Assembly (NCBI GenBank): GCA_039591655.1
Contig: JBDHDE010000011.1
Span: forward strand, 1 to 56,885
Source of the DNA: Gemmatimonadota bacterium
Lineage (GTDB): Bacteria; Gemmatimonadota; Gemmatimonadetes; Gemmatimonadales; GWC2-71-9
DNA: 56,885 nt
Direction: 5' to 3'
Numbering within the stretch: the first letter of the stretch is position 1; the number at the start of each line of letters is the position of its first letter. Of the stretch, positions 8,071 to 46,031 are shown piece after piece. Below the pieces are notes generated by a model. The model saw nothing but the letters and a program-made list of their open reading frames with translations, was not told the origin of the DNA and ran no database searches. The translations under genes and the position numbers were made by a program.

Positions 8071-8107
8071 GGGCTGCCTCCGCGACGCGGGGGCGGCCCT
8101 TGTCGTT
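8071..8107 (+). terminator. Intrinsic terminator-like hairpin after the csp gene
   Basis: GGGCTGCCTCCGC / GCGGGGGCGGCCC stem (with G-U pairs) followed by TTGTCGTT. Confidence 0.6.
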
Positions 8108-8174
8108 CCCCGGCACGGATGCCACTATTGCGCCAGAGGCGCCCGGCGAAGGGACGTCGTGCGGGAGGGTGAAC

Positions 8175-9970: not shown

Positions 9971-11308
9971 CTACATGGTGATCTTGCCCAGCACCTGTTC
10001 CAGCGCCCGGGAGTCGAGCTTCTGCACGCCGCCGACGTTTATATCCATGGCGGCCTCGCCGACCCCCGTCTCGCCCAGCGCCTTTTGGATGGCGCAGGAG
10101 CTCCAGGTTACGGTGCCGTGGTCGTGGGTCCTGAGCGGAGTGTCCTCGTTGCACAGCGACTCGTTGAAGTAGTTCGCGTCCACGAACACCGCGCCCCACA
10201 TGTCGGAGCCGTCCTGGATCTCGACGCAGCCCTTGCCGATGATGAGCCCGGCGAAGTGGCCGCCCTCCAGCTCGAACTCGCTGCCGGTGACCGCATCGAG
10301 CAGGTCCAGTAGCACGATCCCCTGCCCATAGCCGGTCTTGATCTCAACCTCGCCCCGGATCAGGACCACCGGGTAGTAGTCGAAGCACAGGTCGCCGGGG
10401 ACGTTGGAGCCCCAGTTCTCGGGGTCGGTCATATCGCAGGCGCCCCCGGAATACGACGCGGCCAGGTCGAGCTTGACCTGACCACCCCCCACGGAGCTGA
10501 TCACGATGGTGGCCATGTCCTTGATCTCCTGCCACGTCAGCTCGCCGAAGTAGTCGAACGTGGAGTCGTTGATGCTGGGATCCTCGGCCAAGGCCTGGGG
10601 ATCCCCGTCGATCCAGCCGTCCTCCAAGTCCAGCAGGTCTGTGTCGTCCATGATTAGGCCCGTCTTGTTCGTCAGGTCCGGGCACTCGTCCTTCGTACCC
10701 CACCCCGGGGGCAGCTCGTCGTGCCCGTCGACGAAGTCATCACTGTCCGAGATCCTGACCGCGCCCCGCACCGTGGCCGCGGCGTCACAGCACGAGCCCA
10801 GCGTCCACATGCCGCCCGGTGGGGCGCTGGGAGACGGCGTCACGAAGACGCGCAGGCGGCGCTCGCCCAGGTCGTGGGCGTCGCGGCCCTCCACCGAGAC
10901 CATGTAGAGCATCTGGCCCGCGGTGTCGAGGCGGGTGATGGTGGCCTGGAACTTCGCGCCGTTGGCCAGCGTGTGCCAGCCGTTGCTGAACGCCGTGCCG
11001 TTGGCCGACATCTGCCAGGAGGCGTCGAGCACCAGGCTGTCGCCGCCAACCAGGGCGCCCGCGAGGCTGTCCATGTTGTTGGTGGTGTCGTTCCAGATCG
11101 CCTGGACGGCGTTGAGGCCCGCCTCGGCGGCGTAGTAGGCTGTCGCCGAGCTGCGCACCGCCCTGGTCGACTGCTGCTCGTCCACCGAGGTCCGGAGCGC
11201 CACGATGGCGATCGTGGTCATGATGACGAGCGCGAAGATGACAGTCGGTAGGACAAAGCCCTCCCGGCTCGCCAGCCGCGCCCGCAATCGTTCAACTAGC
11301 CTGCTCAT
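9971..11308 (-). CDS. pilX: Extended PilX-like minor pilin (445 aa) with a large acidic, Cys-containing C-terminal domain
   Basis: Class III signal REG|FVLPTVIF lacking Glu5 (PilX/GspK-type); AYYAAEAGL; AAGGAG SD. Confidence 0.75.
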   Translation of the reverse strand: MSRLVERLRARLASREGFVLPTVIFALVIMTTIAIVALRTSVDEQQSTRAVRSSATAYYAAEAGLNAVQAIWNDTTNNMDSLAGALVGGDSLVLDASWQMSANGTAFSNGWHTLANGAKFQATITRLDTAGQMLYMVSVEGRDAHDLGERRLRVFVTPSPSAPPGGMWTLGSCCDAAATVRGAVRISDSDDFVDGHDELPPGWGTKDECPDLTNKTGLIMDDTDLLDLEDGWIDGDPQALAEDPSINDSTFDYFGELTWQEIKDMATIVISSVGGGQVKLDLAASYSGGACDMTDPENWGSNVPGDLCFDYYPVVLIRGEVEIKTGYGQGIVLLDLLDAVTGSEFELEGGHFAGLIIGKGCVEIQDGSDMWGAVFVDANYFNESLCNEDTPLRTHDHGTVTWSSCAIQKALGETGVGEAAMDINVGGVQKLDSRALEQVLGKITM

Positions 11309-11385
11309 ATATGGCTCCTTGCTACTGTTCGCAAAGCTCCCTAGCTAACCCATCATCATCGATCAACGCGGCTGCCGGGTACTGG

Positions 11386-12252
11386 CTAGCCCCGCAAGAA
11401 GACTCTGGTCCGCACGCTGTCCTGCCGCTCCGTCGGCACGTTGGACGTACCGTGGCGCGAGGGGCCGAAGCTCTCCCCCCGGATCACGAACTCGATGACC
11501 CGAACGTCGGCGGGTGTGGCGGTTACGGCCCCCGTCGAGTCGAAGTAGTTGAACTCCAGCCCGCCGTCGGTCTGGGAGCGCACCGGTCCCGTGAGCCTCT
11601 CCCAGCTTGCGGCGCCGGCCACCTTGCGGCCGAACCACCAGCGGCCGTCCTCCTGGTAGATGCCGTACTCCGTGGGCCGGAAGTAGCGCACCGGCGAGCC
11701 GTCGTCGCCGCCCACGACGTCGTTCTTCAGGTCGACCACGTGGTCCGTCTCGATGGTGGCGCCCCCCGCCCAGTCGCAATGGCTGATGCCGCCGCCCACC
11801 GGATCCCACACGTTCTTGATGTCCTCGGCCACCCAGGCGTCGTCGCCGGGGGCGGCTCCCCCGGCCACGAACACCAGGGCGCTGTCGGTCTTGTTGTCGG
11901 GCCACCCAGACGCGGCGTAGATCCCGTAGCGGTCCGGCATGGTGGCGTGCCGCGCGCACAGCACGCCCCCGCCAATCATGGAGCGGATCGAGATCCCGTT
12001 CGCGCCCAGGGTGTAGATGTCGCCCTCGGTCGGCGCGAGCTGCCGCAGGTCCCAGTTGAGCAGCACCGCGGCGCCCCGCAGCGTCTCCCGCACGTCCTGC
12101 ACCTCGCGCTGGTCCTGGTGCGCCATGCTCTGGTTCACCATCAGCCGGTACACCGTGGCCATCACCAGGGAGGCGATGATGATGTAGATCAGCACCTCCA
12201 CTATGGTGAGCCCCGCCTCGTCGAGGCGCCGGGTGCCGTCGCGCCCGCTCAT
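11386..12252 (-). CDS. pilW: PilW-like minor pilin
   Basis: EAG|LTIVEVLIYIIIASL prepilin motif; start overlaps the upstream stop (ATGA). Confidence 0.75.
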   Translation of the reverse strand: MSGRDGTRRLDEAGLTIVEVLIYIIIASLVMATVYRLMVNQSMAHQDQREVQDVRETLRGAAVLLNWDLRQLAPTEGDIYTLGANGISIRSMIGGGVLCARHATMPDRYGIYAASGWPDNKTDSALVFVAGGAAPGDDAWVAEDIKNVWDPVGGGISHCDWAGGATIETDHVVDLKNDVVGGDDGSPVRYFRPTEYGIYQEDGRWWFGRKVAGAASWERLTGPVRSQTDGGLEFNYFDSTGAVTATPADVRVIEFVIRGESFGPSRHGTSNVPTERQDSVRTRVFLRG

Positions 12253-12626
12253 AGCGTGTCCGCCGAGGGGAGGACGAGCACCAGCGTGTCCGCCACGCTC
12301 TGGCCCGCCCGGTTGGTCCACGAAGCCACGATGGTCACGACCTGGGGATCCGTCCCCGCCACGGCCCACGTCATGGGGTGCCCCTGCCGCGTGCCCGAAC
12401 CGTCGACGATGTTGCCGTACCCCCGCCACTGGAGGCTCTCCGCCTGGGCCTGGAGCGCGGACCAGAGGTCCATGTCCCGGCGGCTGTAGTACAGCTGCCG
12501 AGCCGCGAGCCCGCTGGCGGCTGCCAGGCTCAGGAGCAGGGTAGCCAGCACCATGATCCCCACGATCACCTCCACCAGCGCCACACCGCGCTCGCCGCGA
12601 ATTCGATTCCTCTTCTGTGCGCTCAT
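12249..12626 (-). CDS. pilV: PilV-like minor pilin
   Basis: ERG|VALVEVIVGIMVL prepilin motif; about 125 aa; ATGA coupling on both sides. Confidence 0.75.
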   Translation of the reverse strand: MSAQKRNRIRGERGVALVEVIVGIMVLATLLLSLAAASGLAARQLYYSRRDMDLWSALQAQAESLQWRGYGNIVDGSGTRQGHPMTWAVAGTDPQVVTIVASWTNRAGQSVADTLVLVLPSADTL

Positions 12627-13114
12627 CTGGATAGCTTCCCGAGTGCGGTCATCTGCACCGACATGGAGTCGTCGAGTAGTCTGAAGGTGATCGTCCCCTC
12701 CGGCTTCTGACATGGCACGCCCCTGCCGTTCTTGCCCCTCCACGGCAGGCCGCGGGGGTCGAAGCACAGCCGCTTGCGGTCGCTCTCCATCGTGAGGTAG
12801 ACGGTGCTCACGTCCCGCACCTGCCCGATCGTGTCGACCGTGCCGTCGCCCACCGTGTCCATCTCCACCCAGAACGTCGCCGTGGGCCCGTCGATGATCA
12901 GCTCGGAGAGGCGGCCGTAGCGCACCGCCATCATCCGGGCCCGCTGGTACGTAGAGCGGAACTGGTCGATGGAGGCCCGGAGCTTTCTCGACTTGTAGTA
13001 ATTGCGCACGGGAACTACCACGATCGCGGTTAGCACCGCGAGCATGGAGACCACGATCAGCAGCTCGATGATTGTGAACCCGCGTGCCTTCTTCACTTCT
13101 CTCAAATCAAGCAA
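12623..13114 (-). CDS. fimT: FimT/FimU (GspH-like) minor pilin
   Basis: KARG|FTIIELLIVVSML; ARMMAVRYG; FDPRG; MTALG. AGGAGG lies 8 nt before TTG at 13114 (alternative start GTG 13096). Confidence 0.75.
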   Translation of the reverse strand: MLDLREVKKARGFTIIELLIVVSMLAVLTAIVVVPVRNYYKSRKLRASIDQFRSTYQRARMMAVRYGRLSELIIDGPTATFWVEMDTVGDGTVDTIGQVRDVSTVYLTMESDRKRLCFDPRGLPWRGKNGRGVPCQKPEGTITFRLLDDSMSVQMTALGKLSR

Positions 13115-13289
13115 GACACATGCCTCCTGCCTAAGTGCCTGTTCCGCGGGTCGCTGCCTCGATCTCGAGTCGTTGCTCCCGTGCAGGGTGCCACGCGCAC
13201 GGGCACTCTGCCACAACTCCCCTTTCCGGGGCGTCGGGCACAGTGCGCAGCAGTGCACTTGGAACGTACGAATGAACCACCAGGAGTGC

Positions 13290-13755
13290 TGTGACATCTG
13301 GCACAGCAGCGACCCTCCGAAATGCGCGGGAGGACGGGCCATAACACGTTGCGGGCGAACCACATTCCGTGCCTCGCCCAACTGCTAAATGTTGCGCCCG
13401 CGGCGGCCGGGCGCAATCACGACGCCACAGGTTAATACAGTGCCTTCCCGGAGGTCGGCGAGCGCGGCCCGATGTGTGCCGTTGGTCACACTCATGGCGC
13501 TGGCACTGTTTCCCAGCGAGGCCTTGCGATGAGGCGGCGAGCGTGTGACAGGGGCGGTTGGGGGCCGGGCCGAGGCCGGCTGACCGATTGCAGGATGCCG
13601 GGTCCGCGGGCGCCGGGCCGCGCCGCCCGGACCCTGGGAGGCCCCAGGATTTGCCCGGACATGTGGCTGATCGGGCCGCGGAGCTCCGAAAGGCCAGGGA
13701 AGATGGGGCATTTGGGGGCTTTCCGGGCTCGTCGCAAAGTGTGAGCCATGTCATT
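13290..13755. promoter_or_regulatory. Three CRP/FNR-family-like boxes in the divergent fimT/pilS intergenic region
   Basis: TGTGA-CATCTG-GCACA (13290-13305), TGTGC-CGTTGG-TCACA (13475-13490), TGTGA-GCCATG-TCATT (13740-13755) versus consensus TGTGA-N6-TCACA. Confidence 0.45.
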
Positions 13756-13790
13756 TGCATTTTGCCATAGCCCGCCGGATACTACTTGCC

Positions 13791-15470
13791 ATGCGAGGCT
13801 TGGAAGGTCGGTCGCACCCGGATGCCGGCAGGATGCGCCCCGGCGGGGCGCCGTCGGTGCGGGGCCTGCTGCGCTGGGTGTACCTGGGGCGGGTCACGGT
13901 GGCCATCGTGGTGTTCATGGCGGCGGCCTTCTACTTCCAGGCGGTCCCGCCGGTGACCATTCTCATCGTCGCCATCGCGGCGCTGGCCACCGTGATCGTG
14001 ACATCCGTCTCGATCCTGCACACCCACGTCCGGGGCGTCGAGCCGGGCCTCACATTCCTCTACCTCCAGGCGTTGTTCGATCTGGCTCTGATCACCACGG
14101 TGGTGCACGTGACCGAGGGGCCGACCAGCCAGTTCCCGGCCCTGTACATCCTGGTGATCGCGGTGAGCGGCATCATGATGCCGTTCGGCTCGAGCCTGCT
14201 CATCACGAGCCTCGCGAGCCTGCTGTACCTGGCGGACATCGTGTGGTGGTACCCGGTGATAGACCCCGTGGGGGTGTGGCTCCAGATCGCCGTGTTCGTC
14301 GCGGTGTTCATCGCCACCGGCTTCATCGCCACCCGGGTGCGCTCGGCGGGTGCTGAGCGGGACAGCTTGCGGCAGGAGATGAAGCGGTTGCGCCTCGAGG
14401 CCAGCGACATCCTGCGCAACATCACCAGCGGGGTGGTGACGGTAGACGGGAGCGGGAACCTGCTGTACGCCAACCCGGCCGCGGTGCTGCTGCTGGGGAT
14501 CGCTGGCCCCGACATCGAGGGAAGGCCCCTCGCCGAGCTGGTGGGGGACCGGGCGCCCGAGCTCCTCCGGGCCATCGCCACCACCCAGGCCACCAGGCGC
14601 AAGACACTGCGCGACGAGGGAGCGATCCGGGGCGAGCGCTCTTTCCCCATCGGCGTCACCACCACCAGCCTCGAGCATGACGGCGCCGAGTCGCCGTCGG
14701 TGACGGCGATCTTCACCGACATCTCCGATCAGAAGCGCATCGAGGAGCTGCACCTGCGGGCGGGCCGGCTCGAGGCCGTGGCCGAGCTCTCGGCCTCCCT
14801 GGCCCACGAGATCAAGAACCCTCTGGCCTCGATCCGATCATCGGTGGAGCAGATCGCCGACTCGGCCGGCACCGACGACGACGAGCGCGTCCTGGCCCAG
14901 TTGGTGCTGCGGGAGAGCGACCGGCTGAGCCGCCTGCTGAGCGAGTTCCTGGACTTCTCCCGGGTCCAGGTCACCCAGAGCCGGCCGCTGGACCTGGGCG
15001 CCGTGGCGGAGCGTGCGGCGGAGGTGGTACGGCAGCACCCGGACTGCCCGGAGAGCGCAGCTATCGAGGTGCAGCGGGAGCTCAGCCCGCTGGAGGGAGA
15101 CGAGGACTTGCTGCACCGCGTGGCGGTGAATCTCATCCTCAACGCCGTGCAGGCCGCCGACGGCCAGACGCAGGTGAAGGTGGAGGTGCGCGAGGCGAGG
15201 CCCGGCGAGGCGCCGCCAGGGGTGCGGCTGGCCAGGTCGGTGCTCCTCAGGGTGTCCGACGACGGGCCCGGGGTTCCGTTGCACCTCCAGCAGCGGCTGT
15301 TCGAGCCGTTCGTCACCGGCCGCCTGGGCGGCTCGGGGCTCGGGCTCGCCATCGTGCAGCGCGCCGTGGAGGCCCATCGGGGGGTCATCCTGGTGGACTC
15401 GCTGCCCGGCAAGGGAGCCACGTTCACCGTGCTGATACCGACCGGTGGCGTGGGGGAGGTTGTCGCATGA
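13791..15470 (+). CDS. pilS: PilS-type membrane sensor histidine kinase (multi-TM, PAS, HisKA, HATPase)
   Basis: About six TM helices; LAHEIKNPLASI, NLILNA, DDGPG, LFEPF, GSGLGL. Start uncertain (13755/13791/13832). Confidence 0.85.
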   Translation: MRGLEGRSHPDAGRMRPGGAPSVRGLLRWVYLGRVTVAIVVFMAAAFYFQAVPPVTILIVAIAALATVIVTSVSILHTHVRGVEPGLTFLYLQALFDLALITTVVHVTEGPTSQFPALYILVIAVSGIMMPFGSSLLITSLASLLYLADIVWWYPVIDPVGVWLQIAVFVAVFIATGFIATRVRSAGAERDSLRQEMKRLRLEASDILRNITSGVVTVDGSGNLLYANPAAVLLLGIAGPDIEGRPLAELVGDRAPELLRAIATTQATRRKTLRDEGAIRGERSFPIGVTTTSLEHDGAESPSVTAIFTDISDQKRIEELHLRAGRLEAVAELSASLAHEIKNPLASIRSSVEQIADSAGTDDDERVLAQLVLRESDRLSRLLSEFLDFSRVQVTQSRPLDLGAVAERAAEVVRQHPDCPESAAIEVQRELSPLEGDEDLLHRVAVNLILNAVQAADGQTQVKVEVREARPGEAPPGVRLARSVLLRVSDDGPGVPLHLQQRLFEPFVTGRLGGSGLGLAIVQRAVEAHRGVILVDSLPGKGATFTVLIPTGGVGEVVA

Positions 15471-16840
15471 GAGCCCAGAAGCCCAGTATCCTCGTCATCG
15501 ACGACGAGTCCGGCATCCTCGATACCCTGAGGATCCTGCTCAAGAACTCCGGCTTCACCCCGGACACGGCGCAGGGCGGCCGGGCGGGGCTGGATGCCAT
15601 GCGCTCATCCCCGCCCGACATCGTGCTGGCGGACATCCGCATGCCCCAGGTGACTGGGATCGACATCCTGGCCGCCGCGCGGGACCAGGATCCCGAGATG
15701 CCGGTCATCCTCATGACGGCGCAGGCGTCGTTGCAGACGGCCATACAGGCGGTAAACGAGGGCGCCTTCTACTACATCCAGAAGCCCTTCACCAACGACG
15801 ACCTCGTCGCCATCTGCCAGCGCGCCGCCGAGTACCGCCAGCTGCGGTCGGAGAACAAGCAGCTCAAGCGGGAGATCCGCAAGCGGGAGCGCTCCAAGTC
15901 CATCAAGCCCATCGGCAACGCCAGGAACTTCATCGACGTGCTCCAGCTAGCCGAGCAGGTGGCGCCCACCGAGTCCACCGTGCTCATCCTGGGCGAGAGC
16001 GGCACCGGCAAGGAGGTCGTGGCCCGCTTTATCCACGAGCTGTCCGAGCGCACCGAGGGGCCTTTCTTCTCCATCAACTGCGGCGCCCTGCCGGAGAGCC
16101 TGCTGGAGTCCGAGCTGTTCGGGCACATGAAGGGGGCCTTCACCGGCGCCGTGCGGGACAAGCAAGGGCTGTTCGCGGCGGCCCGGGGTGGGACCTTCTT
16201 CCTCGACGAGATTGCCGAGATGACGCCGTCCACCCAGGTGAAGCTGCTCCGGGTGCTGCAGGAGCGGGAGGCGCTCCCAGTGGGCGGCACCGAGCCGGTG
16301 CCGGTGGATGTGCGGGTCATCGCCGCCACCAACCGGGACCTGGACGACGAGATGCGCCGCGGCACGTTCCGCCAGGACCTGTACTACCGCCTCAACGTGA
16401 TATCGCTGCACCTGCCGCCCCTCAGGGCCCGCCGCGAGGACATCCCGGTGCTGGCCGAGGGGCTCCTCCAGCGGATGGCCGAGGACCGGATGCAGCCGGT
16501 GAAGCATCTCGCCGACGACGCGCTCCAGGCCATCATGGCGTACGACTGGCCCGGCAACGTGCGGGAGCTGGAGAACGCCCTGGAGCACGCCGCGCTGCTG
16601 GCGGCCGACAGTAACATCACGGCGGGCCACCTGCCCGAGCGGGCTACGGCCCGCAAGGCCCAGCCCCTGGTCGCCGACCGGCCGCCGGACAACCCGACCC
16701 TCGAGGCCGTGGAGCGGGCGTATATCCTCTGGGTGCTCAACGCCGAGGGCGGGAACAAGACCCGGGCGGCAGAGGTCCTGGGCATCGATCCGTCCACGCT
16801 CTACCGCAAGCTGGCGCGCTATGAATCTGAGTCGGCGTAG
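15467..16840 (+). CDS. pilR: PilR-type sigma54-dependent response regulator
   Basis: Receiver (IDDE, LADIRMP, KPF), [29 protein letters not shown], Fis-type HTH ([11 protein letters not shown]...TLYRKL). Confidence 0.88.
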
Positions 16841-17588
16841 CGGGCCGTTCCGGGGGGAGCCCCTCCCCGCCGACTGGAACCAACTCGTGGTGTCGGTGGT
16901 CATGCCGGCCTACAACGAGGAGGAGACCATCGAGCAGTCGGTGCGGCGCGTGCGGCAGGTCCCGCTCAACGTGGAGATCGTGGCGGTGAACGACGCGTCG
17001 CGGGACCGTACCGGCGAGCTCCTCGATCAACTGGATCAAGAGGGCCTGCTTGACCAGGTGGTCCACCAGCCGAAGAACATGGGCAAGGGCGCCGCGGTGC
17101 GGGCCGGGATCCAGGCGGCCACGGGGCACGTGATCGTGATCCAGGACGCCGACCTGGAGTACGACCCGATGGAGTATCCCACCCTCCTGGAGCCCATCAG
17201 GTCGAACAAGGCCGACGCCGTCTACGGCTCGCGCTTCCAGTCGGGCCCCCGCAGGGTGCTGTACTTCTGGCACTCTGTGGGCAACCGGTTCCTGACGCTG
17301 CTCTCCAACATGCTCACCGACCTCAACCTCACCGACATGGAGACCTGCTACAAGATGGTCCGGGCGGACCTCATGAAGTCGCTGCCGTTGGTCTCCAACC
17401 GCTTCGGCATCGAGCCCGAGCTGACCGCACGCCTGTCGAGGGCCGGGGCGCGCATCTGGGAGGTGCCGATCAGCTACAGCGGGCGGACCTACGCCGAGGG
17501 CAAGAAGATCGACTGGCGGGATGGGATCGCCGCGTTGTGGCACATCCTGCGTTTCAACCTGCTGCCATCCAGGCGCGCCTCCCGCTGA
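16821..17588 (+). CDS. GT2 glycosyltransferase, DPM1/polyprenyl-phosphate sugar synthase-like
   Basis: [61 protein letters not shown]. Confidence 0.9.
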
Positions 17589-19576
17589 CTCGGGACGTCA
17601 CACCTTGGCTGTGGCGCGGCATCGGCGTAGTGCTCGTGCTGCTTGCGGTGCTGCCCCTCGCGCGGTGGTTCGGCGGGGGCGACCCCGGGCCCATCTGGGC
17701 GCCCCACATCCAGGCGTGGCTCATCGGGATCGTCGCAGTCGTCGCTGGCGGCGTCGTGGCGGGTCGGGTAGCCGTTCATCTCGAGCCCCGGCCACGGCGA
17801 CGCCCTGCGGTTTCTCCCTGGGCCTTTGTCGGTTGCATCGCCGGGCTCTTCGTGGTGGCAGCGTCTCTTGCCATGCGGGAGGTGTTTGCCGCCAACCCGC
17901 ACCTGGTGGACGAGGTGGCGCAGCTGTTCCACGCCCGGGTGTTCGCCTCGGGCCGTCTTGCGGCGCCGGTCCCCGAGCCCGCCGAGTCCTTCCTCATCAC
18001 ACACACGTGGCTCACTGACGCCGGTTGGGTATCGCAGTATCCGCCGGGACAGGCGGTACTGCTGGCGCCGGGCCTCCTGCTGGGACTCGAGTGGCTGGTG
18101 AACCCGGTGCTGGGTGGTGTGGGCGTGGTGCTGGTGTTCCTCCTGGCGCGGGGACTCTACGGAGTGCGCACGGCGCTGGCAGCGGCCTTCCTCTGGGCCG
18201 CGTCGGCGTGGGTGCTCTTCATGTCCGCCACGTACATGAACCATGTGGGTGCGACGACCTGTGCCCTCGCGGCGTGGGCGCTATTGTGGGCGCCGAGGAG
18301 GCCGCGGACCTGGCACTGGCTCGGCGCAGGCTTCTTCCTGGCGGCGTGTGCCGCCACGCGGCCCCTGGACGGAGTGGCGGCCGCAATCCCGGTGGCGCTG
18401 TGGCTGGTACTGCGACGGCGTCGCGTCGTGGCAGCCGGCTGGCTGGCACTGGGGGGCCTGCCGGTGGCGTTTGCGTGGGGCTACCTCAACTACCGGCTGT
18501 ACGGCAGTCCGCTGACCCTGGGCTACACTGCGGTCTACGGGCCGGAGCACGGCCTGGGATTCCACGTCGATCCCTGGGGTCTTCGCTACACGCCGCTCGT
18601 GGCACTGGGCAACGCGGCAGCGGCGGTGCGGCGACTCAACATCTACCTGTTCGAGTGGCCGATTCCAGCTCTGCTGCCGCTGGTACTCTGGGGGCTGCTC
18701 GGCCGGCAGCGGCGGAGGGCCGACCTGTTGGTCGCCCTCGGGATCGTGGCGGGTCCACTGCTGTACGCACTCTACTGGCACTCCGGGTTCTATCCGGGGC
18801 CGCGCTTCTACTATATCGCTGCGCCGTGGCTCGTCATCGCAACGGCCCGCGCCTGGCGACAGGCGTGGCTGTGGAGTCGCCGCCGGCCCCGATCGCCGGT
18901 CCGCTGGGACGTGGCACTAGCCGTGGCGGCCTGCGCCGTGCTGGTGTGGGGTTGGGTCGCCATCCTGCCGGCGCGCTGGGACGTGTACCGCACGGGTCTC
19001 ACATCCTTGAAGCTCCATCCCGAGCGAGACATCCGTGCGGCCGGCGTCACGCAGGCGCTGGTGTTGCTGCCCGAGAGCTGGGGCAGTCGCGTCGTCGTCC
19101 GACTGTGGGGTCTGGGCGCGTCCCCCGGACTGGCAGAGCGGGCGTATCGGCGACTGGACACCTGCGAGCTGCACCAGTTTGCCGTGAGGGCCCGCCGGGC
19201 CGGCTTGTCCCCCGCCGCCGTGCACGACAGTCTGGAGCGCCGGCTGGAGGAGCAGCGCCAGGCAGCGCCGCTGGTTCCCGGCTGGCCCGACTGGACGCTG
19301 CGCCTGCAGCCACGGGACACCCTGCCAGGGGAATGCCACATCGAGATGGATCGCGATTTCGCGGGGTTCACCATCTACGGCAACCATGCGTGGCGCAACG
19401 CGACGGGGCTGGATGGGGGGATCGTGTTCGCGCGCGATCTGTTCGAGCGCAATGACGAGCTGCTGGCCCGCTATCCCGGTTGGGAGGTGTGGCGCTTCGC
19501 CCCCGTGGATGGCGGCAGCGCACCACCGGTGCTGCGGCGGCTGAGTCCGGCTCCGGCGAGCGAGGCGGCGCCGTGA
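17537..19576 (+). CDS. Multi-TM GT-C-fold (ArnT/PMT-like) glycosyltransferase
   Basis: About 12 hydrophobic segments; acidic loop motif PHLVDE after the first TMs; SQYPPG, TRPLDG, GPRFYY. Start uncertain. Confidence 0.65.
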
Positions 19577-21426
19577 GCTGGCGCCGCGTGGCGTCGGGTA
19601 CCGAGCCGAGCGCCGACCAATGGGGGCTGGCACTCTCGGTGCTTCTCGCCCTGGGGGCGTATGCCACCAGCGTGGGCCACGACTTCGTGTACGACGACGT
19701 CCACGTCATCGCGGAGAACCCCCTGTTCCACTCCATGGCCAATTGGCGCGCCATCCTCGGCTCCGCCTGGTGGGGCCCCGAGCTGTACCGGCCCGTCACG
19801 GCGCTGACGCTGGCCGTGGACTGGTCCGTGGGGGGCGGCGACCCGCACCTGTTCCATGCATGGAACGTGGTGTTCCACGCCGTGGCCACGGGACTGGTCT
19901 TCGTGCTGGCCCGGCGCTGGATCCAGACATTCGGCGCCACCGTGGCGGCAGCCCTGTTCGCCGTGCACCCGGTGCACGTGGAGGCGGTGGCCAACGTGGT
20001 GGGACGCGCCGAGGTGCTGGCGGGACTGTTCACCGTGGCCGCTGCCATCGTCTACGCCGCCGACGGAGATCTGGCCCGGTCCGGCGACCGGTCGTGGCGC
20101 CGCTGGATCGCATCGCTGGGCTCGCTCGGATTGCTGGCTCTCGCCCTGGGATCCAAGGAGAGCGCGTTTGCCACGCCGGGCATCTTCCTCATCGTGGACT
20201 GGCTCGACGCCAAGCGGGCCGGGGAACGCTCGGTGGATCGCTGGCGGCGCCACTGGATCGTGTGGCTCGCATCGGTGGCGCTCACGGCGGAGTTCCTCTG
20301 GGTGCGGATGCTGGTCGTGGGAGGCCTGACCGGAGTGCACGCCGCCCCTGGCATAGAGGGCGAAGGCCTGGTGGGCCGGCTCCTGGTGATGGCGCCGGTG
20401 GTCCTGGAGTACGGGCGGCTGTTACTGTTCCCGCTCCGGCTCTCGGCCGACTACTCCCCCAACTTCCTCGAGCCGGTGGCGGCGCTCACCCTCGCGGGCG
20501 CCGCCGGCCTCGCCACGGTCGTGCTCGGGATCCTGGTGGCGATCCGCGCCAAGGACCGCGCCCCGGTGGTGAGCTTCGGCCTGGCGTGGGTGGGTGGCAC
20601 ACTGCTGGTGATCTCCAACCTCCTGGTGCCCACCGGCGTGGTACTGGCCGAGCGCTCCATGTACGTTCCCTCGGTCGGTGTGGTGCTGATACTCGGTTGG
20701 GCGGCCGACTGGCTCGCCGTGCAGCGGCGCCTCACCGCAGCGCTGCTCGCGGCCCTGGTAGTGGGCCTGGGAATGGCCCGCACCGTTACGCGCGTCCCCG
20801 TATGGAGCACCCGCGGGGGCTTCTTCCTGCAGTTGGTGAAGGATGCCCCCGGCTCGTACCGCGGCTTCTGGGTGGCGAGCGCCCTGGCGTACGGCGCCGG
20901 CAACCGGGAGCGCGGCGAGGCCCTCGCGCTCGAGGCCCTCAAGATCCAGCCGGTGTTCCCCAACCTGTGGGAGTACATGGCGCGGCGCTACGAGGAGGAC
21001 GAACGGTGGCTGGAGGCGGCGCACGCCCTGAACGCCGAGTTCCGCCTCGACAGCACGAGGCTGCACGTGGCCGCCGACGCCATCGTGGACTACGTGTGGT
21101 CCGGCGCCCTGGACAGCGCGGCGGCTGTCGGGAGCCGGGCCCAGCGCATGGATCCCCACTACTATCGGGTGCACATCGCCATGGCCGACCTAGCGCTGGC
21201 CCGCGGCCGGCCGCTGGAAGCCATGACATACAGACGGCGGGCGGCCCTGCAGTTTCCCCAGGTGTGGCAGTACTGGCATTTCACCGCTGAGGCGGCACTG
21301 CTGGCAGGTCACTGTCCCGAGGTGCTGCGCGCGCAGGAGCGGTTGCGGACGCTGGAGGTACACGAGCAAGTGCTGCAGACGCTGCAGGAGCGAGCCGAGG
21401 AGGTCGGGTGCGAGCCCGCTGGGTAG
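19573..21426 (+). CDS. TMTC/DUF1736-like GT-C glycosyltransferase with C-terminal TPR-like helices
   Basis: DFVYDD..I.ENP, YRPVT, FHAWNV.FH, LFAVHPVHVEAVANVVGRAE, SKES, LSADYS, AERSMYVPS, R..VW; GTGA overlap start. Confidence 0.8.
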   Translation: MSWRRVASGTEPSADQWGLALSVLLALGAYATSVGHDFVYDDVHVIAENPLFHSMANWRAILGSAWWGPELYRPVTALTLAVDWSVGGGDPHLFHAWNVVFHAVATGLVFVLARRWIQTFGATVAAALFAVHPVHVEAVANVVGRAEVLAGLFTVAAAIVYAADGDLARSGDRSWRRWIASLGSLGLLALALGSKESAFATPGIFLIVDWLDAKRAGERSVDRWRRHWIVWLASVALTAEFLWVRMLVVGGLTGVHAAPGIEGEGLVGRLLVMAPVVLEYGRLLLFPLRLSADYSPNFLEPVAALTLAGAAGLATVVLGILVAIRAKDRAPVVSFGLAWVGGTLLVISNLLVPTGVVLAERSMYVPSVGVVLILGWAADWLAVQRRLTAALLAALVVGLGMARTVTRVPVWSTRGGFFLQLVKDAPGSYRGFWVASALAYGAGNRERGEALALEALKIQPVFPNLWEYMARRYEEDERWLEAAHALNAEFRLDSTRLHVAADAIVDYVWSGALDSAAAVGSRAQRMDPHYYRVHIAMADLALARGRPLEAMTYRRRAALQFPQVWQYWHFTAEAALLAGHCPEVLRAQERLRTLEVHEQVLQTLQERAEEVGCEPAG

Positions 21427-22898
21427 CCTGGGGTGACTGGGCGACGCGGGAATGGCCCCACGTCCTGGCGCTGTTCGTCTTCGTGCTGGCCCTCTGGGCG
21501 CAGGCCGAAGCCATGGTGGGTGTGTTCTACGACGACGGCATCTACGTCGTGCTGGCGAAGGCGCTGGCCGGTAGCGAGGGGTACCGCAACATCCACCTGC
21601 CCGACGCGCCGGCGGCGGTGCACTACCCCATCCTGTATCCGTTCGCGCTGAGCCTGCTGTGGCGGCTCTGGCCGGCGTTCCCCGCCAACGTGGTCCTGTT
21701 CGAGATCTTCGACTCGGCGGCCCTCGCCGTCTCGGCCTGGCTCATGGCGCTGCATGCGCGCCGTGCGAACCTGCCGGGGATCGCCGCGCCGGTGGCTCTG
21801 TTCCTGGGGTTCACCGCCTTCCCGGTCCTGGCCGTGGTGGGGGTCCGGCTCTCCGAGCCGCTGTTCCTGGCACTGTTCGCTGCAGCGGTCCTCATGGCCG
21901 ACCGGGACATCGTGACCGATCGGGGGGCCGTCGCGGCGGGGGTGCTGGCGGGGCTCGCGACCCTCACCCGCAGCGTGGGGGTGACGGTGATCGCGGGGGT
22001 GGCCATCGGGCTGTGGCTCAAGGGCCGGCGACGGGCGGCGATCATCCACTCGGCGGTCGCCGCGGTCATCATCGCGCCGTGGTTCGTGTGGGTTGCGGGA
22101 GCCAAGGGTGGGATCGACCCGCGCCTCTCCGCCAGCTATGGGACCTACTTCGACGAGGTGGGCCAGGCGGGAGTGAGCGGGGTGCTGCCCGGGTTCGACC
22201 TGAGCGTGGTGGGTCCGCTGGCCCGCCTGACGCTGCCGGGCGCGCCGGGGTGGCTGTGGTATCCCCTGGTGGCGCTGCTGGCCGTGGTGATCGGGTGGGG
22301 CGGGTTGGTCCTGGCCCGGCGCGTCACCTGTCTGCTGGCTTCCATCGTGGCCTATCTCCTCATGATCGCGTTCTGGCCGTTCCCGCCCGACCGGTTCCTC
22401 TGGATCCTGGTGCCGTGGCTGGCGCTGCTCGGGGCGGCGGGAGGGATCGCCCTGTGGCGCCGCGGGGTGCCGGGCAGGGTGGCGGTGGCAGCGCTGCTGG
22501 TCGCCCTTGCGTTGGGCTACGTGCCCCGGGAGCTGACGTCGCTGAAGAACCGCGGGTTCGCCCGCACGGCCGAGCGGATCAGCATGCCGTTCGGCGTGCT
22601 GGTGCCGGCCATCAGCGCTGAGACGCCGGAGGCGGCGGTGGTGGCGTCGGCCGACGAGCCGCTGATCTACCTGTACACGGGCCGTCGCGCGGTGCCGAAC
22701 CACATCTTCCGCTGGAAGGAGCGGGACACCGAGGCGTTCTCGCCCGATACGACCTATCAGTTCTTCTGCGACTACGGCGTGAGCTACCTGGCGCTCACCA
22801 GCCCCAGCGCTAATGCCGCGCCCCTGTCGGCGGGGCTGGAGCCCATGTTCCGCGTCTCGGGCGGCCCGGCCCTGTTCCGGTATCTATGTCCCGCCTGA
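21408..22898 (+). CDS. Multi-TM GT-C-fold (ArnT/PMT-like) glycosyltransferase
   Basis: GVFYDDGIYVVLAKALA loop motif, HYPILYP, LSEPLF, LTRSVG, DRFL; many TM segments. Confidence 0.7.
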   Translation: MRARWVAWGDWATREWPHVLALFVFVLALWAQAEAMVGVFYDDGIYVVLAKALAGSEGYRNIHLPDAPAAVHYPILYPFALSLLWRLWPAFPANVVLFEIFDSAALAVSAWLMALHARRANLPGIAAPVALFLGFTAFPVLAVVGVRLSEPLFLALFAAAVLMADRDIVTDRGAVAAGVLAGLATLTRSVGVTVIAGVAIGLWLKGRRRAAIIHSAVAAVIIAPWFVWVAGAKGGIDPRLSASYGTYFDEVGQAGVSGVLPGFDLSVVGPLARLTLPGAPGWLWYPLVALLAVVIGWGGLVLARRVTCLLASIVAYLLMIAFWPFPPDRFLWILVPWLALLGAAGGIALWRRGVPGRVAVAALLVALALGYVPRELTSLKNRGFARTAERISMPFGVLVPAISAETPEAAVVASADEPLIYLYTGRRAVPNHIFRWKERDTEAFSPDTTYQFFCDYGVSYLALTSPSANAAPLSAGLEPMFRVSGGPALFRYLCPA

Positions 22899-24751
22899 CC
22901 CTCGGCCGCGCCGCGGCGCTGGCGGCCCTGGTGGCGTGCATCGTCTACTCCAACGCCCTGCTGAACGGGTGGGCGATGGACGACTCCGGCGTGGTGCGGG
23001 AAAACCCGGCGGCGCACTCCGTCGCAGCGGCGTGGGAGGGGCGGTTCTCGCCCTATTGGCCCATGGTGGAGGGGGTGAGCGCAGGGCTGTGGCGCCCGGC
23101 GATCACCATGTCCTACGCCGTGGACTGGACACTGTCGGGGGGGCGGGAGTGGTGGTTCCACGCCCACAACGTGCTGCTCCACGCCCTGGTCACGGCGCTG
23201 GTGGTACTAGTGATAGCCGCGTGGCTGCCGCCTCCCGCAGCCCTGGCAGCCGGCCTCGTGTTCGCGGTGCATCCGGTGCACGTGGAGGCGGTGTCGAACG
23301 TGGTGGGGCGGGCGGAGATCCAGGCCGCGCTGTTCATCCTGCTCGCCGTCGTCGCGTTCCGTCGCGCGCGGTTCGCTGGGAGCGTCGCGGGGAGCCGGGC
23401 CTGGTTTGCGGGGACCGTGGCGGCAACGCTTCTCGCGCTCCTCTCCAAGGAGCACGGGGCCGTGACCGTGACGGTGCTGGCGCTGGATGCGCTACTGCTC
23501 AAAGGCCCACAGGGCCGCCTGGTGGTCCGCCGGTTGCTGCTCATCGCGGCGATTACCGTGGCGTGGGTCCTGGTGTGGCAGGCGGTGGCCGGGGGGTGGG
23601 TGCGGCCCAGCACCGCCACGTCGCTGCGCTACCTCTCGCCCGGCCAGCGCATCGCCACGGTGCTCCCCGTCTACCTCGAGGTCGTGCGACTGCTCACCTG
23701 GCCCATGGTGCTGTCCCACGACTACAACCCCCAGCTCATTCCCCAGCGGACGGAGTTCACGGCCTTCGCGCTCATGGGGTTCCTGACCGCCGGTGCGGTG
23801 GTGGCGCTGGGGTTGGCGTGTCTCAAGAAGGCGCCGGTTGTGAGCTTCGGGATTCTCGTGGCGGTCCTGTCCTACGCACCCTCCTCCAACCTCATCTTCC
23901 CGGCGGGCACGATTCTCGGCGAGCGCCTGCTCTACCTGGCGGTGCTGGCGCCGGCGTGCGTGGCGGGGTGGCTGATGATGCGGTTTCGCGGGTGGCAGTG
24001 GGCGCTTCCGGCGCTGAGCATCGTGCTGCTCGCCTACGGCGCGCGCACGGTCACCCGGACGCCCTTCTGGAAGGACAGTCTCACCGTGGTGATCGATGGC
24101 CTGGTCCAGCATCCCGAGGTCTTCCGGGTGCACATGGAGCTGGGGCACATGCTGATGCAGGCGGGCGACTCCGCGCGGGCCCTGTCGGAGTACCTCGTCG
24201 CGGGTGAGATCTTCGGGCGCGATCCGTTCGTTGCGATGTGGAGCGTGCCGCTGGCGCTGGAGCTGGAACGGCCCCGGGTGGCGTTGCGGGAGGCACAGCG
24301 GGTGTGGCCCCTGGCGCCCCATCACCCGGCCGTAAACGGTGTGCTGGCCGGCGCGTACCGGGCCAACGGCCAGTGGGACTCCGCCCTGGCGGTGGCCCGT
24401 GAGGGTGTGCAACGGGCCCCGCAGAGCCGCACCGCAGCCCTCGTGTACCAGGAGCTGCTCAGGGCCCGGGACGAGCCCCCGTGGCGCATCGCCCTCGCCG
24501 AGGCCCGGCTCCACTGGCGCCGCGGCCATTTCACCAGCGCCACCGGGGCCTTGGCGGCGGCGGACACGCTGATCGGCGATGCCGCGAGCCTCGACGGAGT
24601 CTGTTGGGAGATCGCCGACCTCAGGCTGGCGATTCGCGCCCTCGTTCCAGAACTGGAGCAGGCGGCCCAAGAGGCCGCCCGGAGGGAGGGCCAGCCGTGT
24701 CAGATTGGTGACGCAGACCCCTTGCGTCCAGCGGGAGGCCTTGCAAATTGA
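22886..24751 (+). CDS. Second TMTC/DUF1736-like GT-C glycosyltransferase with TPR-like C-terminus
   Basis: WAMDD..V.ENP, WRP, FHAHNVLLH, FAVHPVHVEAVSNVVGRAE, SKEH, LSHDY, GERLLYL, R...W; clear paralog of 19573-21426. Confidence 0.8.
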   Translation: MSRLTLGRAAALAALVACIVYSNALLNGWAMDDSGVVRENPAAHSVAAAWEGRFSPYWPMVEGVSAGLWRPAITMSYAVDWTLSGGREWWFHAHNVLLHALVTALVVLVIAAWLPPPAALAAGLVFAVHPVHVEAVSNVVGRAEIQAALFILLAVVAFRRARFAGSVAGSRAWFAGTVAATLLALLSKEHGAVTVTVLALDALLLKGPQGRLVVRRLLLIAAITVAWVLVWQAVAGGWVRPSTATSLRYLSPGQRIATVLPVYLEVVRLLTWPMVLSHDYNPQLIPQRTEFTAFALMGFLTAGAVVALGLACLKKAPVVSFGILVAVLSYAPSSNLIFPAGTILGERLLYLAVLAPACVAGWLMMRFRGWQWALPALSIVLLAYGARTVTRTPFWKDSLTVVIDGLVQHPEVFRVHMELGHMLMQAGDSARALSEYLVAGEIFGRDPFVAMWSVPLALELERPRVALREAQRVWPLAPHHPAVNGVLAGAYRANGQWDSALAVAREGVQRAPQSRTAALVYQELLRARDEPPWRIALAEARLHWRRGHFTSATGALAAADTLIGDAASLDGVCWEIADLRLAIRALVPELEQAAQEAARREGQPCQIGDADPLRPAGGLAN

Positions 24752-24843
24752 GGGCCCCCAATGAGGCCGGGGGTGTCACGCAGAACTGCCGTGGCACGCG
24801 TAACTCTCTGGTGTGTCTGTTGTTAACCGGCGTGGTCCCCAGG

Positions 24844-24859
24844 GGGCATGGAGCTTGCT
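24844..24859 (+). promoter_or_regulatory. Sigma54 (-24/-12) promoter of pilA1
   Basis: GGGCATGGAGCTTGCT gives GG-N10-GC with TTGC, matching TGGCAC-N5-TTGC; about 80 nt before pilA1; imperfect dyad GTGTCACG...CGTGGCAC (about 24773-24797) upstream may be the activator site. Confidence 0.75.
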
Positions 24860-24940
24860 TTAAAGAGTGTCGGCAACAGGTGCCGCCTCGTATCTTGGCG
24901 GCCAAAGGGAGTGACACCACAATCCGCGGAGGTGTGTAGC

Positions 24941-25306
24941 ATGGACCGCAAGGGTTTCACCCTGATCGAGCTTCTGATCGTCGTGGTCATTATCGGCATT
25001 CTGGCCGCCATCGCGATCCCGAAGTTCGCCAACACGAAGGAGAAGGCGTACATCGCCGCGATGAAGTCCGACCTGCGCAACATGGTGAACGCGCAGGAGA
25101 GCTACTTCGCGGACTACACCACCTACACGACCGATCTCGGGACCGGCTACGGCGAGTCCCCGGGCGTGACGGTGGCCCTGGCGAGCGTGACCGGCACCGG
25201 CTGGCAGGCCACGTCGGCGCACAACGGTACGACCAAGACCTGCGTCATCTATCTTGGCGGCAACACGCCCAGCGGCACCACCGAGGGTGAACCGGTCTGC
25301 AACTAG
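24941..25306 (+). CDS. pilA: Major type IV pilin 1
   Basis: MDRKG|FTLIELLIVVVIIGILAAIAIPKF; GGAGG SD; C-terminal Cys pair; Ser/Thr-rich head. Confidence 0.93.
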   Translation: MDRKGFTLIELLIVVVIIGILAAIAIPKFANTKEKAYIAAMKSDLRNMVNAQESYFADYTTYTTDLGTGYGESPGVTVALASVTGTGWQATSAHNGTTKTCVIYLGGNTPSGTTEGEPVCN

Positions 25307-25333
25307 CGTAGATCGGTGGATGGTAGCTGGAGG

Positions 25334-25371
25334 GTGAGGCGGTGGGGGATACCCTCACCGCCTCGCTTCTT
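25334..25371 (+). terminator. Intrinsic terminator after pilA1
   Basis: GTGAGGCGGTGGGG / CCTCACCGCCTCGC stem followed by TTCTT. Confidence 0.65.
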
Positions 25372-25470
25372 ACCCACGATCCGGCGCAAGCACTGGACGA
25401 CTTGCATTATTTGCCTCAGAAGCGATGTTCCCACGCACTAACGAGGAAGAGCCGGCCAAGGACTTAGGCC

Positions 25471-25848
25471 ATGCGTAGCCAATCCAGAGGGTTCACGCTG
25501 ATCGAGCTCCTGATCGTGGTGGTGATCATCGGGATTCTGGCAGCCATCGCCATCCCGAAGTTCTCCAACACGAAGGAGCGGGCGTATCTGACGTCCATGA
25601 AGGCGGATCTCAGGAACCTGGTGACCGCCCAGGAGGCGTACCTGGCGGACCACAACACATACACAACGGATCTGGGCACCATGTACTCGGAGTCGCCCGG
25701 GATCAACGTCACGCTCCAGGGGGTCAGCGCGTCGGGCTGGGGGGCCACCGCGACACACAACGGGACCATCAAGACCTGTGCGGTCTTCTATGGAGGGGGG
25801 TCGCCGATCGCGCCGGCCACGCTCGAAGGGGAGCCGACGTGTAGTTGA
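25471..25848 (+). CDS. pilA: Major-type type IV pilin 2 (paralog of pilA1)
   Basis: MRSQSRG|FTLIELLIVVVIIGILAAIAIPKF; shares YTTDLGT.Y.ESPG, GW.AT..HNGT.KTC and EGEP.C with pilA1. Confidence 0.9.
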   Translation: MRSQSRGFTLIELLIVVVIIGILAAIAIPKFSNTKERAYLTSMKADLRNLVTAQEAYLADHNTYTTDLGTMYSESPGINVTLQGVSASGWGATATHNGTIKTCAVFYGGGSPIAPATLEGEPTCS

Positions 25849-25867: not shown

Positions 25868-25906
25868 AAGGGCGGTAGGGCTTCGGCGCTGCCGCCCTTT
25901 TTCGTT
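25868..25906 (+). terminator. Intrinsic terminator after pilA2
   Basis: AAGGGCGGTAG...CTGCCGCCCTT stem with TTCG loop and a T-rich tail. Confidence 0.8.
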
Positions 25907-45900: not shown

Positions 45901-46031
45901 GCGACGTCGAGCGGGCTCGCCTGTTATACCGGTCGCTCGTGGGCTCCCGGCGGCGGAGCCCCGGCGATGTGCGCTCCAGACTCGTCGCAGCGTACCTGCG
46001 TTGGTATAGTGAAGAGGGGGACGGGACGTGA
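42981..46031 (+). CDS. Multi-TM membrane protein fused to a spermidine synthase-like SAM-binding domain
   Basis: Two TM repeats ([12 protein letters not shown]...G / [10 protein letters not shown]...G), then [45 protein letters not shown]. Confidence 0.8.

What the first reader, a model, noticed from the sequence alone, without database searches (positions are those of the whole stretch)
16821..25848. Candidate TMTC-type protein glycosylation cassette between pilSR and the major pilins
Seen: five overlapping, translationally coupled genes run from pilR to pilA. They encode one DPM1-like GT2 and four polytopic proteins, each with a DD/DE motif in an early loop. Two carry the TMTC/DUF1736-like motif string (DD..I..NP, RP, FH..N...H, FAVHP.H.EAV....GRAE, SKE, DY, ER..Y) plus a TPR-like tail. 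Both pilin heads are Ser/Thr-rich (DYTTYTTDLGT, SVTGTG.ATS). Known: eukaryotic TMTC1-4 O-mannosylate cadherin domains using Dol-P-Man made by DPM1; P. aeruginosa TfpW is a GT-C that glycosylates pilin. Inference: this is a self-contained pathway from a polyprenyl-phosphate sugar to pilin. The alternating ArnT-like/TMTC-like pairs could prime and extend the glycan or serve the two pilins separately. I know of no characterised bacterial TMTC-like system linked to pili.
Basis: partly seen in the sequence, partly recalled or inferred. Interest (0 to 1): 0.85.

Follow-up and report, generated by a model that had tools for sequence, protein, structure and literature searches.

The report
TfpW/TMTC-family pilin sugar-coating cassette
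Five overlapping genes between this bacterium's pilus regulator and its pilus-subunit genes encode a predicted lipid-sugar donor enzyme and four predicted membrane sugar-transferases; two are homologous to the Pseudomonas pilin glycosylase TfpW, so they likely sugar-coat the pilus as a larger, untested variant of a known system.

Summary
The five genes are real and overlap from pilR onward, but pilA is separate: a 189-nt gap holds a conserved sigma-54-type site. GT2 resembles polyprenyl-phosphate-sugar synthases. B and C model as GT-C folds; A passes PMT_2. B and D keep most published TMTC motifs plus TPR tails, but score below the DUF1736 cut-off. A B-family profile finds TfpW, the characterised pilin arabinosyltransferase of Pseudomonas paraeruginosa, as its best hit in that genome, and aligns across the whole membrane domain. 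TfpW is therefore itself a TMTC-like enzyme linked to pili; I found that link in no paper searched. The pilR-pilA slot is a variable accessory cassette: TMTC/TfpW-like genes fill it in 25 of 38 relatives with the full interval, and 11 have no glycosyltransferase there. Likely mechanism: pilin Ser/Thr O-glycosylation by B and/or D from a GT2-made lipid-linked sugar (0.62). The sugar, the flippase and the roles of A and C are unknown. 'Self-contained' and 'one pair per pilin' are not supported. The scan noted this design earlier in other genomes. Verdict: new variant of a known kind.

The parts
13755..15470 (+). pilS-like sensor kinase (start codon uncertain); first gene of the overlapping run
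   Evidence: 6TM_PilS, PAS, HisKA, HATPase_c
15467..16840 (+). pilR-like sigma-54 response regulator; overlaps GT2 by 20 nt
   Evidence: Response_reg, Sigma54_activat, HTH_8; overlap
16821..17588 (+). GT2, 255 aa, no TM segment; predicted polyprenyl-phosphate-monosaccharide synthase, sugar unknown
   Evidence: PF00535 E 4e-35; best PDB hit 5mlz Dol-P-Man synthase E 1.6e-18, then sll0501 (5eke) and the undecaprenyl-phosphate L-Ara4FN transferase; below every NCBIfam equivalog cut-off
17585..19576 (+). Gene A, ArnT/PMT_2-type GT-C with conserved DE; likely CTG start overlapping the GT2 stop; 663 aa
   Evidence: PMT_2 29.3 bits over cut-off 26.1; Atlas hits named ArnT/PMT_2; start; not modelled
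19573..21426 (+). Gene B, TMTC/TfpW-family GT-C with C-terminal TPRs, 617 aa
   Evidence: Model pLDDT 93.9; Z 21.9 to AglB 3waj (rmsd 4.9, 336 aligned), 19.9 to Pmt1/2 6p2r, 19.2 to ArnT 5f15; motifs; TfpW homology
21408..22898 (+). Gene C, ArnT-like GT-C with conserved DD and a small alpha/beta C-terminal domain, 496 aa
   Evidence: Model pLDDT 94.7; Z 19.8 to ArnT 5f15 (rmsd 5.1, 431 aligned), tied with ALG12 9s6t at 19.0; weak GT87
22886..24751 (+). Gene D, second TMTC/TfpW-family GT-C with TPRs, 621 aa, 30% identical to B
   Evidence: BLASTP E 2e-43; TPR hits; in a different clade from B in a quick tree
24843..24859 (+). Sigma-54-type -24/-12 promoter-like site upstream of pilA1
   Evidence: 10 of 13 informative positions of a recalled consensus; a site scoring >=10 lies before the first pilin in 40 of 45 related loci, mostly 83-118 nt upstream
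24941..25306 (+). pilA1, type IVa major pilin, 116 aa mature; likely acceptor
   Evidence: N_methyl and pilin models; head S+T 0.30
25330..25371 (+). Strong hairpin after pilA1
   Evidence: -33.7 kcal/mol, no shuffle control
25471..25848 (+). pilA2, second major-type pilin, 118 aa mature
   Evidence: head S+T 0.26; no sigma-54-type site found in its spacer
25868..25899 (+). Hairpin followed by a T run after pilA2, terminator-like
   Evidence: -25.4 kcal/mol; not listed by the consensus scan

Best explanation
This is likely an accessory pilin O-glycosylation cassette of the TfpW type: the GT2 is predicted to load one sugar onto a polyprenyl phosphate, and B and/or D would transfer it to Ser/Thr of the pilin heads on the outer face of the inner membrane. 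Steps: (1) GT2 makes polyprenyl-P-sugar on the cytoplasmic side (inferred from homology; sugar unknown). (2) The donor is flipped by a protein outside the cassette or by a GT-C itself (unknown; the TfpW preprint proposes the latter). (3) B and D use the DD/KE/DY/ER site to glycosylate membrane-anchored pilin, with the TPR tail probably selecting the acceptor (fold, motifs and TfpW homology shown; activity inferred). (4) A and C are ArnT-like and may extend or decorate that glycan, or serve another envelope acceptor with the same donor (unresolved). (5) The cassette is probably transcribed with pilSR, while PilR likely drives pilA from a separate sigma-54 promoter (gene overlaps and site shown; transcription inferred). 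The variable gene content would fit masking pili from phage, as shown for TfpW in Pseudomonas.
For: TfpW, the ORF directly after pilA in P. paraeruginosa ATCC 9027 (641 aa, with DDS and YX6PFX7P), is the best hit of the B-family profile in that genome, E 6.2e-17, next best 1e-4. hhalign gives probability 97.6. A membrane-domain-only profile of 136 sequences without TfpW scores it at 94 bits over positions 10-421, against 4.9 for the best of 200 shuffles. B carries Y280-x6-P-L-x7-P in the register of TfpW's proline motif. GT-C folds. Catalytic-type residues are conserved in 77-79 of 79 homologues (DD, K, E, R). Linkage: 75 of 92 hits lie within 10 kb of pilR or pilA, in 42 of 44 genomes. In a second sample, 42 of 50 genomes have a hit within 16 kb of pilR. 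In this genome B and D are the only two family members found. The DPM-like GT2 accompanies 19 of 25 TMTC-bearing slots. TfpW function and phage protection: 10.1101/2020.04.19.049825 (parts 1-3 of 4 read) and 10.1101/150227 (abstract).
Against: No biochemical or expression data. TfpW is distant (23-25% identity over about 185 residues) and on a long branch, so substrate cannot be transferred safely. The family is very large (29,029 representatives at E<=1e-30, some probably through TPRs). Many copies lie away from pili: 17 of 92 hits and 43 of 110, some through contig breaks, with unrelated neighbours seen. Pilin S+T differs only modestly, 0.27 (30 genomes) against 0.22 (8 genomes), nominal p 0.04, on related genomes, with overlap. 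The cassette is upstream of pilA and not coupled to it, unlike tfpW. In family f3 the slot also holds Wzx-type flippases and GT4/GT2 genes, as a polysaccharide cluster would.
Confidence: 0.62

Rival explanations
1. B and D are broad protein O-glycosyltransferases for exported beta-rich proteins (minor pilins, Ig-like lipoproteins, adhesins), like TMTCs on cadherin domains; the major pilin is one substrate among several, or none.
For: TMTC motif set retained. Unlinked paralogues exist, one passing PF08409 at 43.5 bits. An S/T-rich (0.20) Ig-domain protein is encoded after pilQ. The cassette is coupled to pilSR rather than pilA.
Against: The position just before the major pilin is kept across three families. 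The 11 genomes with no GT in the slot, and the 2 with GT2+C only, have no B-family hit elsewhere. The one characterised bacterial relative modifies pilin.
Confidence: 0.2
2. The cassette mainly decorates lipid A, LPS, a glycolipid or a surface polysaccharide (ArnC/ArnT or GtrB logic), and the pilR-pilA slot is only an insertion hot spot for surface genes.
For: C is closest to ArnT and A is PMT_2/ArnT-like. The GT2 also matches sll0501 and ArnC-type enzymes. The slot holds Wzx, GT4, methyltransferase and spermidine-synthase-like genes in relatives. Two genomes have GT2+C without any TMTC-like gene.
Against: It does not explain B and D, whose characterised relatives with TPR tails (TfpW, TMTC) act on proteins. 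It may still be true for A and C alone.
Confidence: 0.12
3. B and D are non-catalytic pilin chaperones or assembly factors acting through their TPRs.
For: TPR tails; retained duplicates.
Against: DD, KE, DY and ER residues are near-invariant and a donor synthase is co-encoded.
Confidence: 0.04

Closest known systems
TfpW, pilin D-arabinofuranosyltransferase of Pseudomonas aeruginosa group IV / P. paraeruginosa (Pa5196, PA7)
   Same: GT-C domain with DD in loop 1 plus C-terminal TPRs; homologous to B/D across the membrane domain; same proline-loop spacing; adjacent to pilA; accessory and variably present.
   Different: TfpW is a single enzyme downstream of and co-transcribed with pilA, with an unlinked DprE1/E2 arabinose pathway in P. 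aeruginosa. Here two paralogues, two ArnT-like GT-Cs and a GT2 lie upstream of pilA, joined to pilSR. No ALO/DprE1-type domain was found in this genome, so the sugar is probably not D-Araf. Identity is only 23-25% locally, and TfpW lacks a clean DY/DW in the HMM register.
Eukaryotic TMTC1-4 protein O-mannosyltransferases (PF08409; called CAZy GT105, a recalled label)
   Same: Membrane domain plus TPR architecture; motifs M1 DD, YRP of M2, M4 KE and M7 ERxxY present, M3 as RxE, M5 as DY (paper PMC7801869); weak PF08409 signal at the right loop; Atlas row with a eukaryotic DUF1736 cluster at 0.92.
   Different: Below the PF08409 cut-off; SHKS of M2 absent, and PxxP of M6 absent in B and half present in D; far fewer TPRs (TMTC count recalled); donor and acceptor untested; no direct alignment to a eukaryotic TMTC was made.
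ArnC/ArnT and GtrA/GtrB-type three-component glycosylation systems
   Same: GT2 lipid-phosphate-sugar synthase plus ArnT-fold GT-C (A, C).
   Different: No flippase gene in the cassette and no GtrA found in the genome; no Ara4N biosynthesis genes in the cassette; acceptors unknown.

Membership tests
GT-C superfamily (B, C, A, D) | GT-C transmembrane fold | tested here: met
   B Z 21.9, rmsd 4.9, 336 aligned to 3waj; C Z 19.8, rmsd 5.1, 431 aligned to 5f15, top 20 rows all GT-C-type folds. A and D not modelled: A passes PMT_2, D is homologous to B.
GT-C superfamily (B, C, A, D) | Conserved acidic pair in the first external loop | tested here: met
   A, B, C families; D
TfpW-like pilin glycosyltransferases (B, D) | Sequence homology to TfpW over the membrane domain | tested here: met
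   A and C profiles do not match TfpW
TfpW-like pilin glycosyltransferases (B, D) | DDX motif, YX6PFX7P loop, C-terminal TPR | tested here: met
   B: DD41-42 and Y280-x6-P-L-x7-P (F to L). D keeps the P-x8-P spacing but has V for Y. The strict pattern is in 42 of 117 B orthologues against 1 of 102 and 0 of 118 for A and C. TPR.
TfpW-like pilin glycosyltransferases (B, D) | Encoded next to the major pilin gene | tested here: met
   D is the gene before pilA1; upstream rather than downstream
TfpW-like pilin glycosyltransferases (B, D) | Linked or unlinked D-Araf (DprE1/DprE2) donor pathway | tested here: inconclusive
   PF04030 (ALO) not found in the 95%-complete genome; only this one domain was searched
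TfpW-like pilin glycosyltransferases (B, D) | Transfers sugar to pilin Ser/Thr | not testable with these tools
   needs mass spectrometry or reconstitution
TMTC1-4 (PF08409) | PF08409 DUF1736 above the curated cut-off | tested here: not met
   14.2 and 13.7 bits against 27; at least 18 of 80 homologues show a sub-cut-off hit, best 25.8; an unlinked paralogue in G002 passes at 43.5
TMTC1-4 (PF08409) | Motifs M1-M7 of PMC7801869 Table 4 | tested here: inconclusive
   M1, M4 (KE) and M7 met; M2, M3 and M5 partly (YRP/WRP, RxE, DY); M6 PxxP absent in B, half in D
TMTC1-4 (PF08409) | Polyprenyl-P-mannose donor and cadherin-type acceptor | not testable with these tools
   one weak PF01050 hit elsewhere in the genome does not identify the sugar
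DPM1/Ppm1-type polyprenyl-P-mannose synthase (GT2) | Closest solved relative is a lipid-phosphate-sugar synthase | tested here: met
   5mlz E 1.6e-18, then 5eke and ArnC-type chains
DPM1/Ppm1-type polyprenyl-P-mannose synthase (GT2) | GDP-mannose specificity | tested here: inconclusive
   below all NCBIfam equivalog cut-offs; the best models (AglJ, Dol-P-hexose, PpgS) use different sugars

The most novel reading that the evidence does not exclude
TfpW and the animal TMTCs are one enzyme family, with type IV pilins as its widespread bacterial acceptors. In Gemmatimonadales it has grown into a four-GT-C assembly line: two anciently diverged initiators (B, D) with different site or pilin specificity, and two ArnT-like extenders (A, C) that build a glycan on the pilin one lipid-linked monosaccharide at a time. 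Swapping these genes would diversify the pilus surface.
Probability: 0.25. Interest if true: 0.7.

Novelty: new variant of a known kind. Interest (0 to 1): 0.42.

Why it matters
If right, pilin glycosylation by TfpW-type enzymes is not a Pseudomonas oddity but a common, variable surface trait of an abundant and little-cultured phylum, plausibly shaped by phage. The TfpW-TMTC homology also offers small bacterial models, with a defined donor synthase and a 120-residue acceptor, for an animal enzyme family of which no structure appeared in my PDB searches. The design itself (a GT-C/TPR enzyme beside pilA) is already known, which limits the surprise.

Tried and rejected
Direct DUF1736 test: failed for B and D. 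HMM search of the B alignment against PDB sequences showed only TPR matches in the 60 of 178 rows displayed. Foldseek of the B model listed TPR/helical-repeat chains and no GT-C among the rows shown. No TMTC or TfpW chain was listed, which does not exclude one. The A alignment matched nothing in PDB sequences. TfpW itself has no Pfam hit at E<=0.05. tblastn of B's membrane domain against plasmids found nothing. No RNA holder was listed. The sigma-70/terminator scan was at chance level. 'One enzyme pair per pilin' rejected: G005, G006, G008 and G009 have two pilins with only A+D; G038 has A, B, D and one pilin; G029 has three TMTC-like genes and one pilin found. Ser/Thr richness as proof of substrate rejected as weak. 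Two frameshifted pilins (G025, G026) were dropped and three orphan-pilin loci excluded; within the own genus G010 has all four GT-Cs yet S+T 0.17. The careful tree did not finish; only the quick tree is cited and TfpW's position in it is unreliable. No complex prediction was run. Literature: TfpW+TMTC, TMTC+pilin and TMTC+prokaryot+pilin+glycosyltransferase gave no relevant paper. Searches gave nothing on this locus (listings only). The library lacks most subscription papers, and bioRxiv supplements could not be seen, so a TfpW-TMTC link may exist in print unseen.
Full report
Context. The window holds a full type IVa pilus region: pilB, pilT, pilC, minor pilins, pilS, pilR, two major-type pilins, more minor pilins and pilMNOPQ. 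Close homologues carry Gemmatimonadales labels, so the organism is probably of that order; this is an inference.

Observation. The five ORFs exist and overlap: pilR/GT2 20 nt, A/B 4, B/C 19, C/D 13. Gene A probably starts at the CTG at 17585, overlapping the GT2 stop by 4 nt. Of 10 relatives examined, 8 show the same NTGA junction, and homologues are about 660 aa. The run ends at D, with 189 nt to pilA1 and 164 nt to pilA2. A sigma-54-type site (consensus recalled) lies at 24843-24859. A site of equal or better score lies before the first pilin in 40 of 45 related loci, but before the second in 5 of 20. The window has 41 such sites on both strands, so the evidence is the conserved position, not the single match. 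The cassette is therefore tied to pilSR, and pilA probably has its own PilR-dependent promoter.

What the proteins are. GT2 (PF00535) has no transmembrane segment. Its closest solved relative is the Dol-P-Man synthase 5mlz (E 1.6e-18), followed by other lipid-phosphate-sugar synthases. It passes no NCBIfam equivalog cut-off, so the sugar is unknown. The model of B (pLDDT 93.9) aligns over residues about 10-425 to AglB (Z 21.9), Pmt1/2 (19.9) and ArnT (19.2), and over about 425-610 to TPR proteins. The model of C (pLDDT 94.7) is closest to ArnT (Z 19.8, 431 aligned), tied with ALG12. A passes PMT_2 and was not modelled. D is 30% identical to B. B and D fall in separate supported clades of a quick tree that both span families f1 and f3, which suggests an old duplication. 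The early acidic pair is near-invariant in each family.

TMTC test. I read passages and one part of PMC7801869, which lists seven TMTC motifs and notes prokaryotic homologues. B and D have DD, (Y/W)RP, RxE, KE, DY and ERxxY. PxxP is missing in B and half present in D, and the SHKS segment is missing. PF08409 does not reach its cut-off: 14.2 and 13.7 bits, though these are the only two matches in the genome and fall on the expected loop. At least 18 of 80 more distant homologues show a sub-cut-off hit (only five families shown per protein). An unlinked paralogue in G002, which B finds at E 4e-36, passes at 43.5 bits. Nine of 120 listed B homologues are labelled 'protein O-mannosyl-transferase' by JGI, and the Atlas lists a eukaryotic DUF1736 cluster at 0.92. 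So B and D are TMTC-like but are not filed as TMTC members.

TfpW test. The TfpW preprint (10.1101/2020.04.19.049825, parts 1-3 of 4 read) describes a 646-aa GT-C with DDX, a YX6PFX7P loop and C-terminal TPRs, directly after pilA. I reached the genome of P. paraeruginosa ATCC 9027. The B-family profile's best hit there is the ORF after pilA, beside pilB (E 6.2e-17). It is 641 aa and has DDS and YX6PFX7P, so I identify it as TfpW. hhalign gives probability 97.6 over 189 columns. A membrane-only profile of B, D and 134 homologues scores it at 94 bits over positions 10-421, against 4.9 for the best of 200 shuffles; the A and C profiles do not match it. The conserved residues line up: DD, RP, H, HP-x-x-x-E, GR-x-D/E, SKE and ER. 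B has the proline loop in the same register. The converse point, that TfpW is TMTC-like, appeared in none of my searches.

Relatives. B homologues occur in 44 of 61 related genomes and 85 of 151 sampled across the phylum. 75 of 92 hits at E<1e-20 lie within 10 kb of pilR or pilA, in 42 of 44 genomes. Among newly sampled genomes with both genes listed, 42 of 50 have a hit within 16 kb of pilR (37 within 10 kb), but only 67 of 110 hits do (24 matches were not listed). I counted by hand the 38 genomes, own included, where pilR and the next pilA are on one contig. 25 have TMTC/TfpW-like genes in the slot, 2 have GT2 plus C-type only, and 11 have no recognised glycosyltransferase. Those 13 have no B-family hit anywhere with this query. 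The DPM-like GT2 accompanies 19 of the 25. The intact order A-B-C-D occurs in 4 of the 25. In family f3 the slot also contains Wzx-type flippases, GT4s and other GT2s; in others it contains a methyltransferase or a fused MFS/spermidine-synthase-like gene. These genomes are related, so the counts are not independent. The slot behaves like the variable pilin-accessory position of Pseudomonas.

Substrate. Head S+T is 0.30 and 0.26 here and 0.26 in the ATCC 9027 pilin. It averages 0.27 in 30 genomes with a TMTC-like gene at the pilin locus and 0.22 in 8 without (nominal p 0.04, kin not independent, two frameshifted pilins dropped). This is weak support. Enzyme number does not track pilin number, so one pair per pilin is unsupported.

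Completeness of the pathway. No flippase is in the cassette, and PF04138 (GtrA) was not found in the 95%-complete genome. Four PF03706 proteins lie elsewhere and could serve (role inferred). No PF04030 domain was found, so D-arabinose is unlikely. Four other PMT_2 proteins and three other related GT2s exist. 'Self-contained' is not shown.

Mechanism and verdict. The most likely reading (0.62) is pilin Ser/Thr O-glycosylation by B and/or D from a GT2-made polyprenyl-P-monosaccharide, with A and C extending the glycan or serving another envelope acceptor. Fold, motifs, TfpW homology and linkage are shown; every catalytic step is inferred. Phage masking is borrowed from Pseudomonas (10.1101/150227, abstract; PMC11841053, passages). 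Rivals are a broader protein glycosylation system (0.2), lipid or polysaccharide decoration (0.12) and a non-catalytic role (0.04). Earlier notes of this scan describe the same design in other genomes. I had read the TfpW preprint and named TfpW as the model before seeing them; one note named strain ATCC 9027, and I tested the homology myself. New variant of a known kind; interest 0.42.

Noticed in passing
window 42981-46031; L023, L024, L052, L072, L075-L077: A fused MFS/spermidine-synthase-like gene (about 1010 aa) lies 10 kb past pilQ here, but directly after pilR in several relatives (identified by BLAST or Pfam in G004, G006, G009, G014, G030; by size and N-terminus in G002, G005, G008, G010, G032), sometimes as the only gene in the slot. 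A link to pilus or glycan modification is unexplained.
   Followed up: partly
L023:13425-14192, L027:13507-14340, L029:18669-19316: Class I SAM methyltransferase genes sit at the cassette in some relatives, directly before the GT2 in two; they could methylate the sugar.
   Followed up: partly
window 33191-34327 and 34324-36147: Two exported or lipoprotein-like beta-rich proteins follow pilQ; the first has a Big_7 Ig domain and S+T 0.20. Possible adhesins and alternative acceptors.
   Followed up: partly
window 17585: Gene A probably uses a CTG start overlapping the GT2 stop, where most relatives have GTG.
   Followed up: yes
L088:3098-4945, L090, L091, L092, L096, L089: A separate, non-pilus clade of TMTC-like proteins in the same genus and family; the G002 member passes the PF08409 cut-off, so these look closer to eukaryotic TMTCs than B or D do. 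Not found in this genome.
   Followed up: partly
window 9971-13381 (minus strand): A second minor-pilin cluster (FimT/GspH-like, PilV-, PilW-, PilX-like) runs opposite to pilS, in addition to the one after pilA2.
   Followed up: no
L032, L033, L034, L037, L039, L041 and others: Many relatives carry a second two-component pair between pilA and the minor pilins, which this genome lacks at that place.
   Followed up: no
window 53780-55696: A 638-aa protein joining an Fe-S/[FeFe]-hydrogenase-like region to a GGDEF domain, downstream of a sigma-54 activator gene.
   Followed up: no
window 8100-9662: A 520-aa ORF after pilC that reads like a two-domain polyphosphate kinase 2 (recognised from the translation; no family search run).
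   Followed up: no
L050, L051, L036: The first pilin appears frameshifted in G026 and G025 (both empty-slot genomes), and A and C appear as fragments in G034; assembly errors are not excluded.
   Followed up: no
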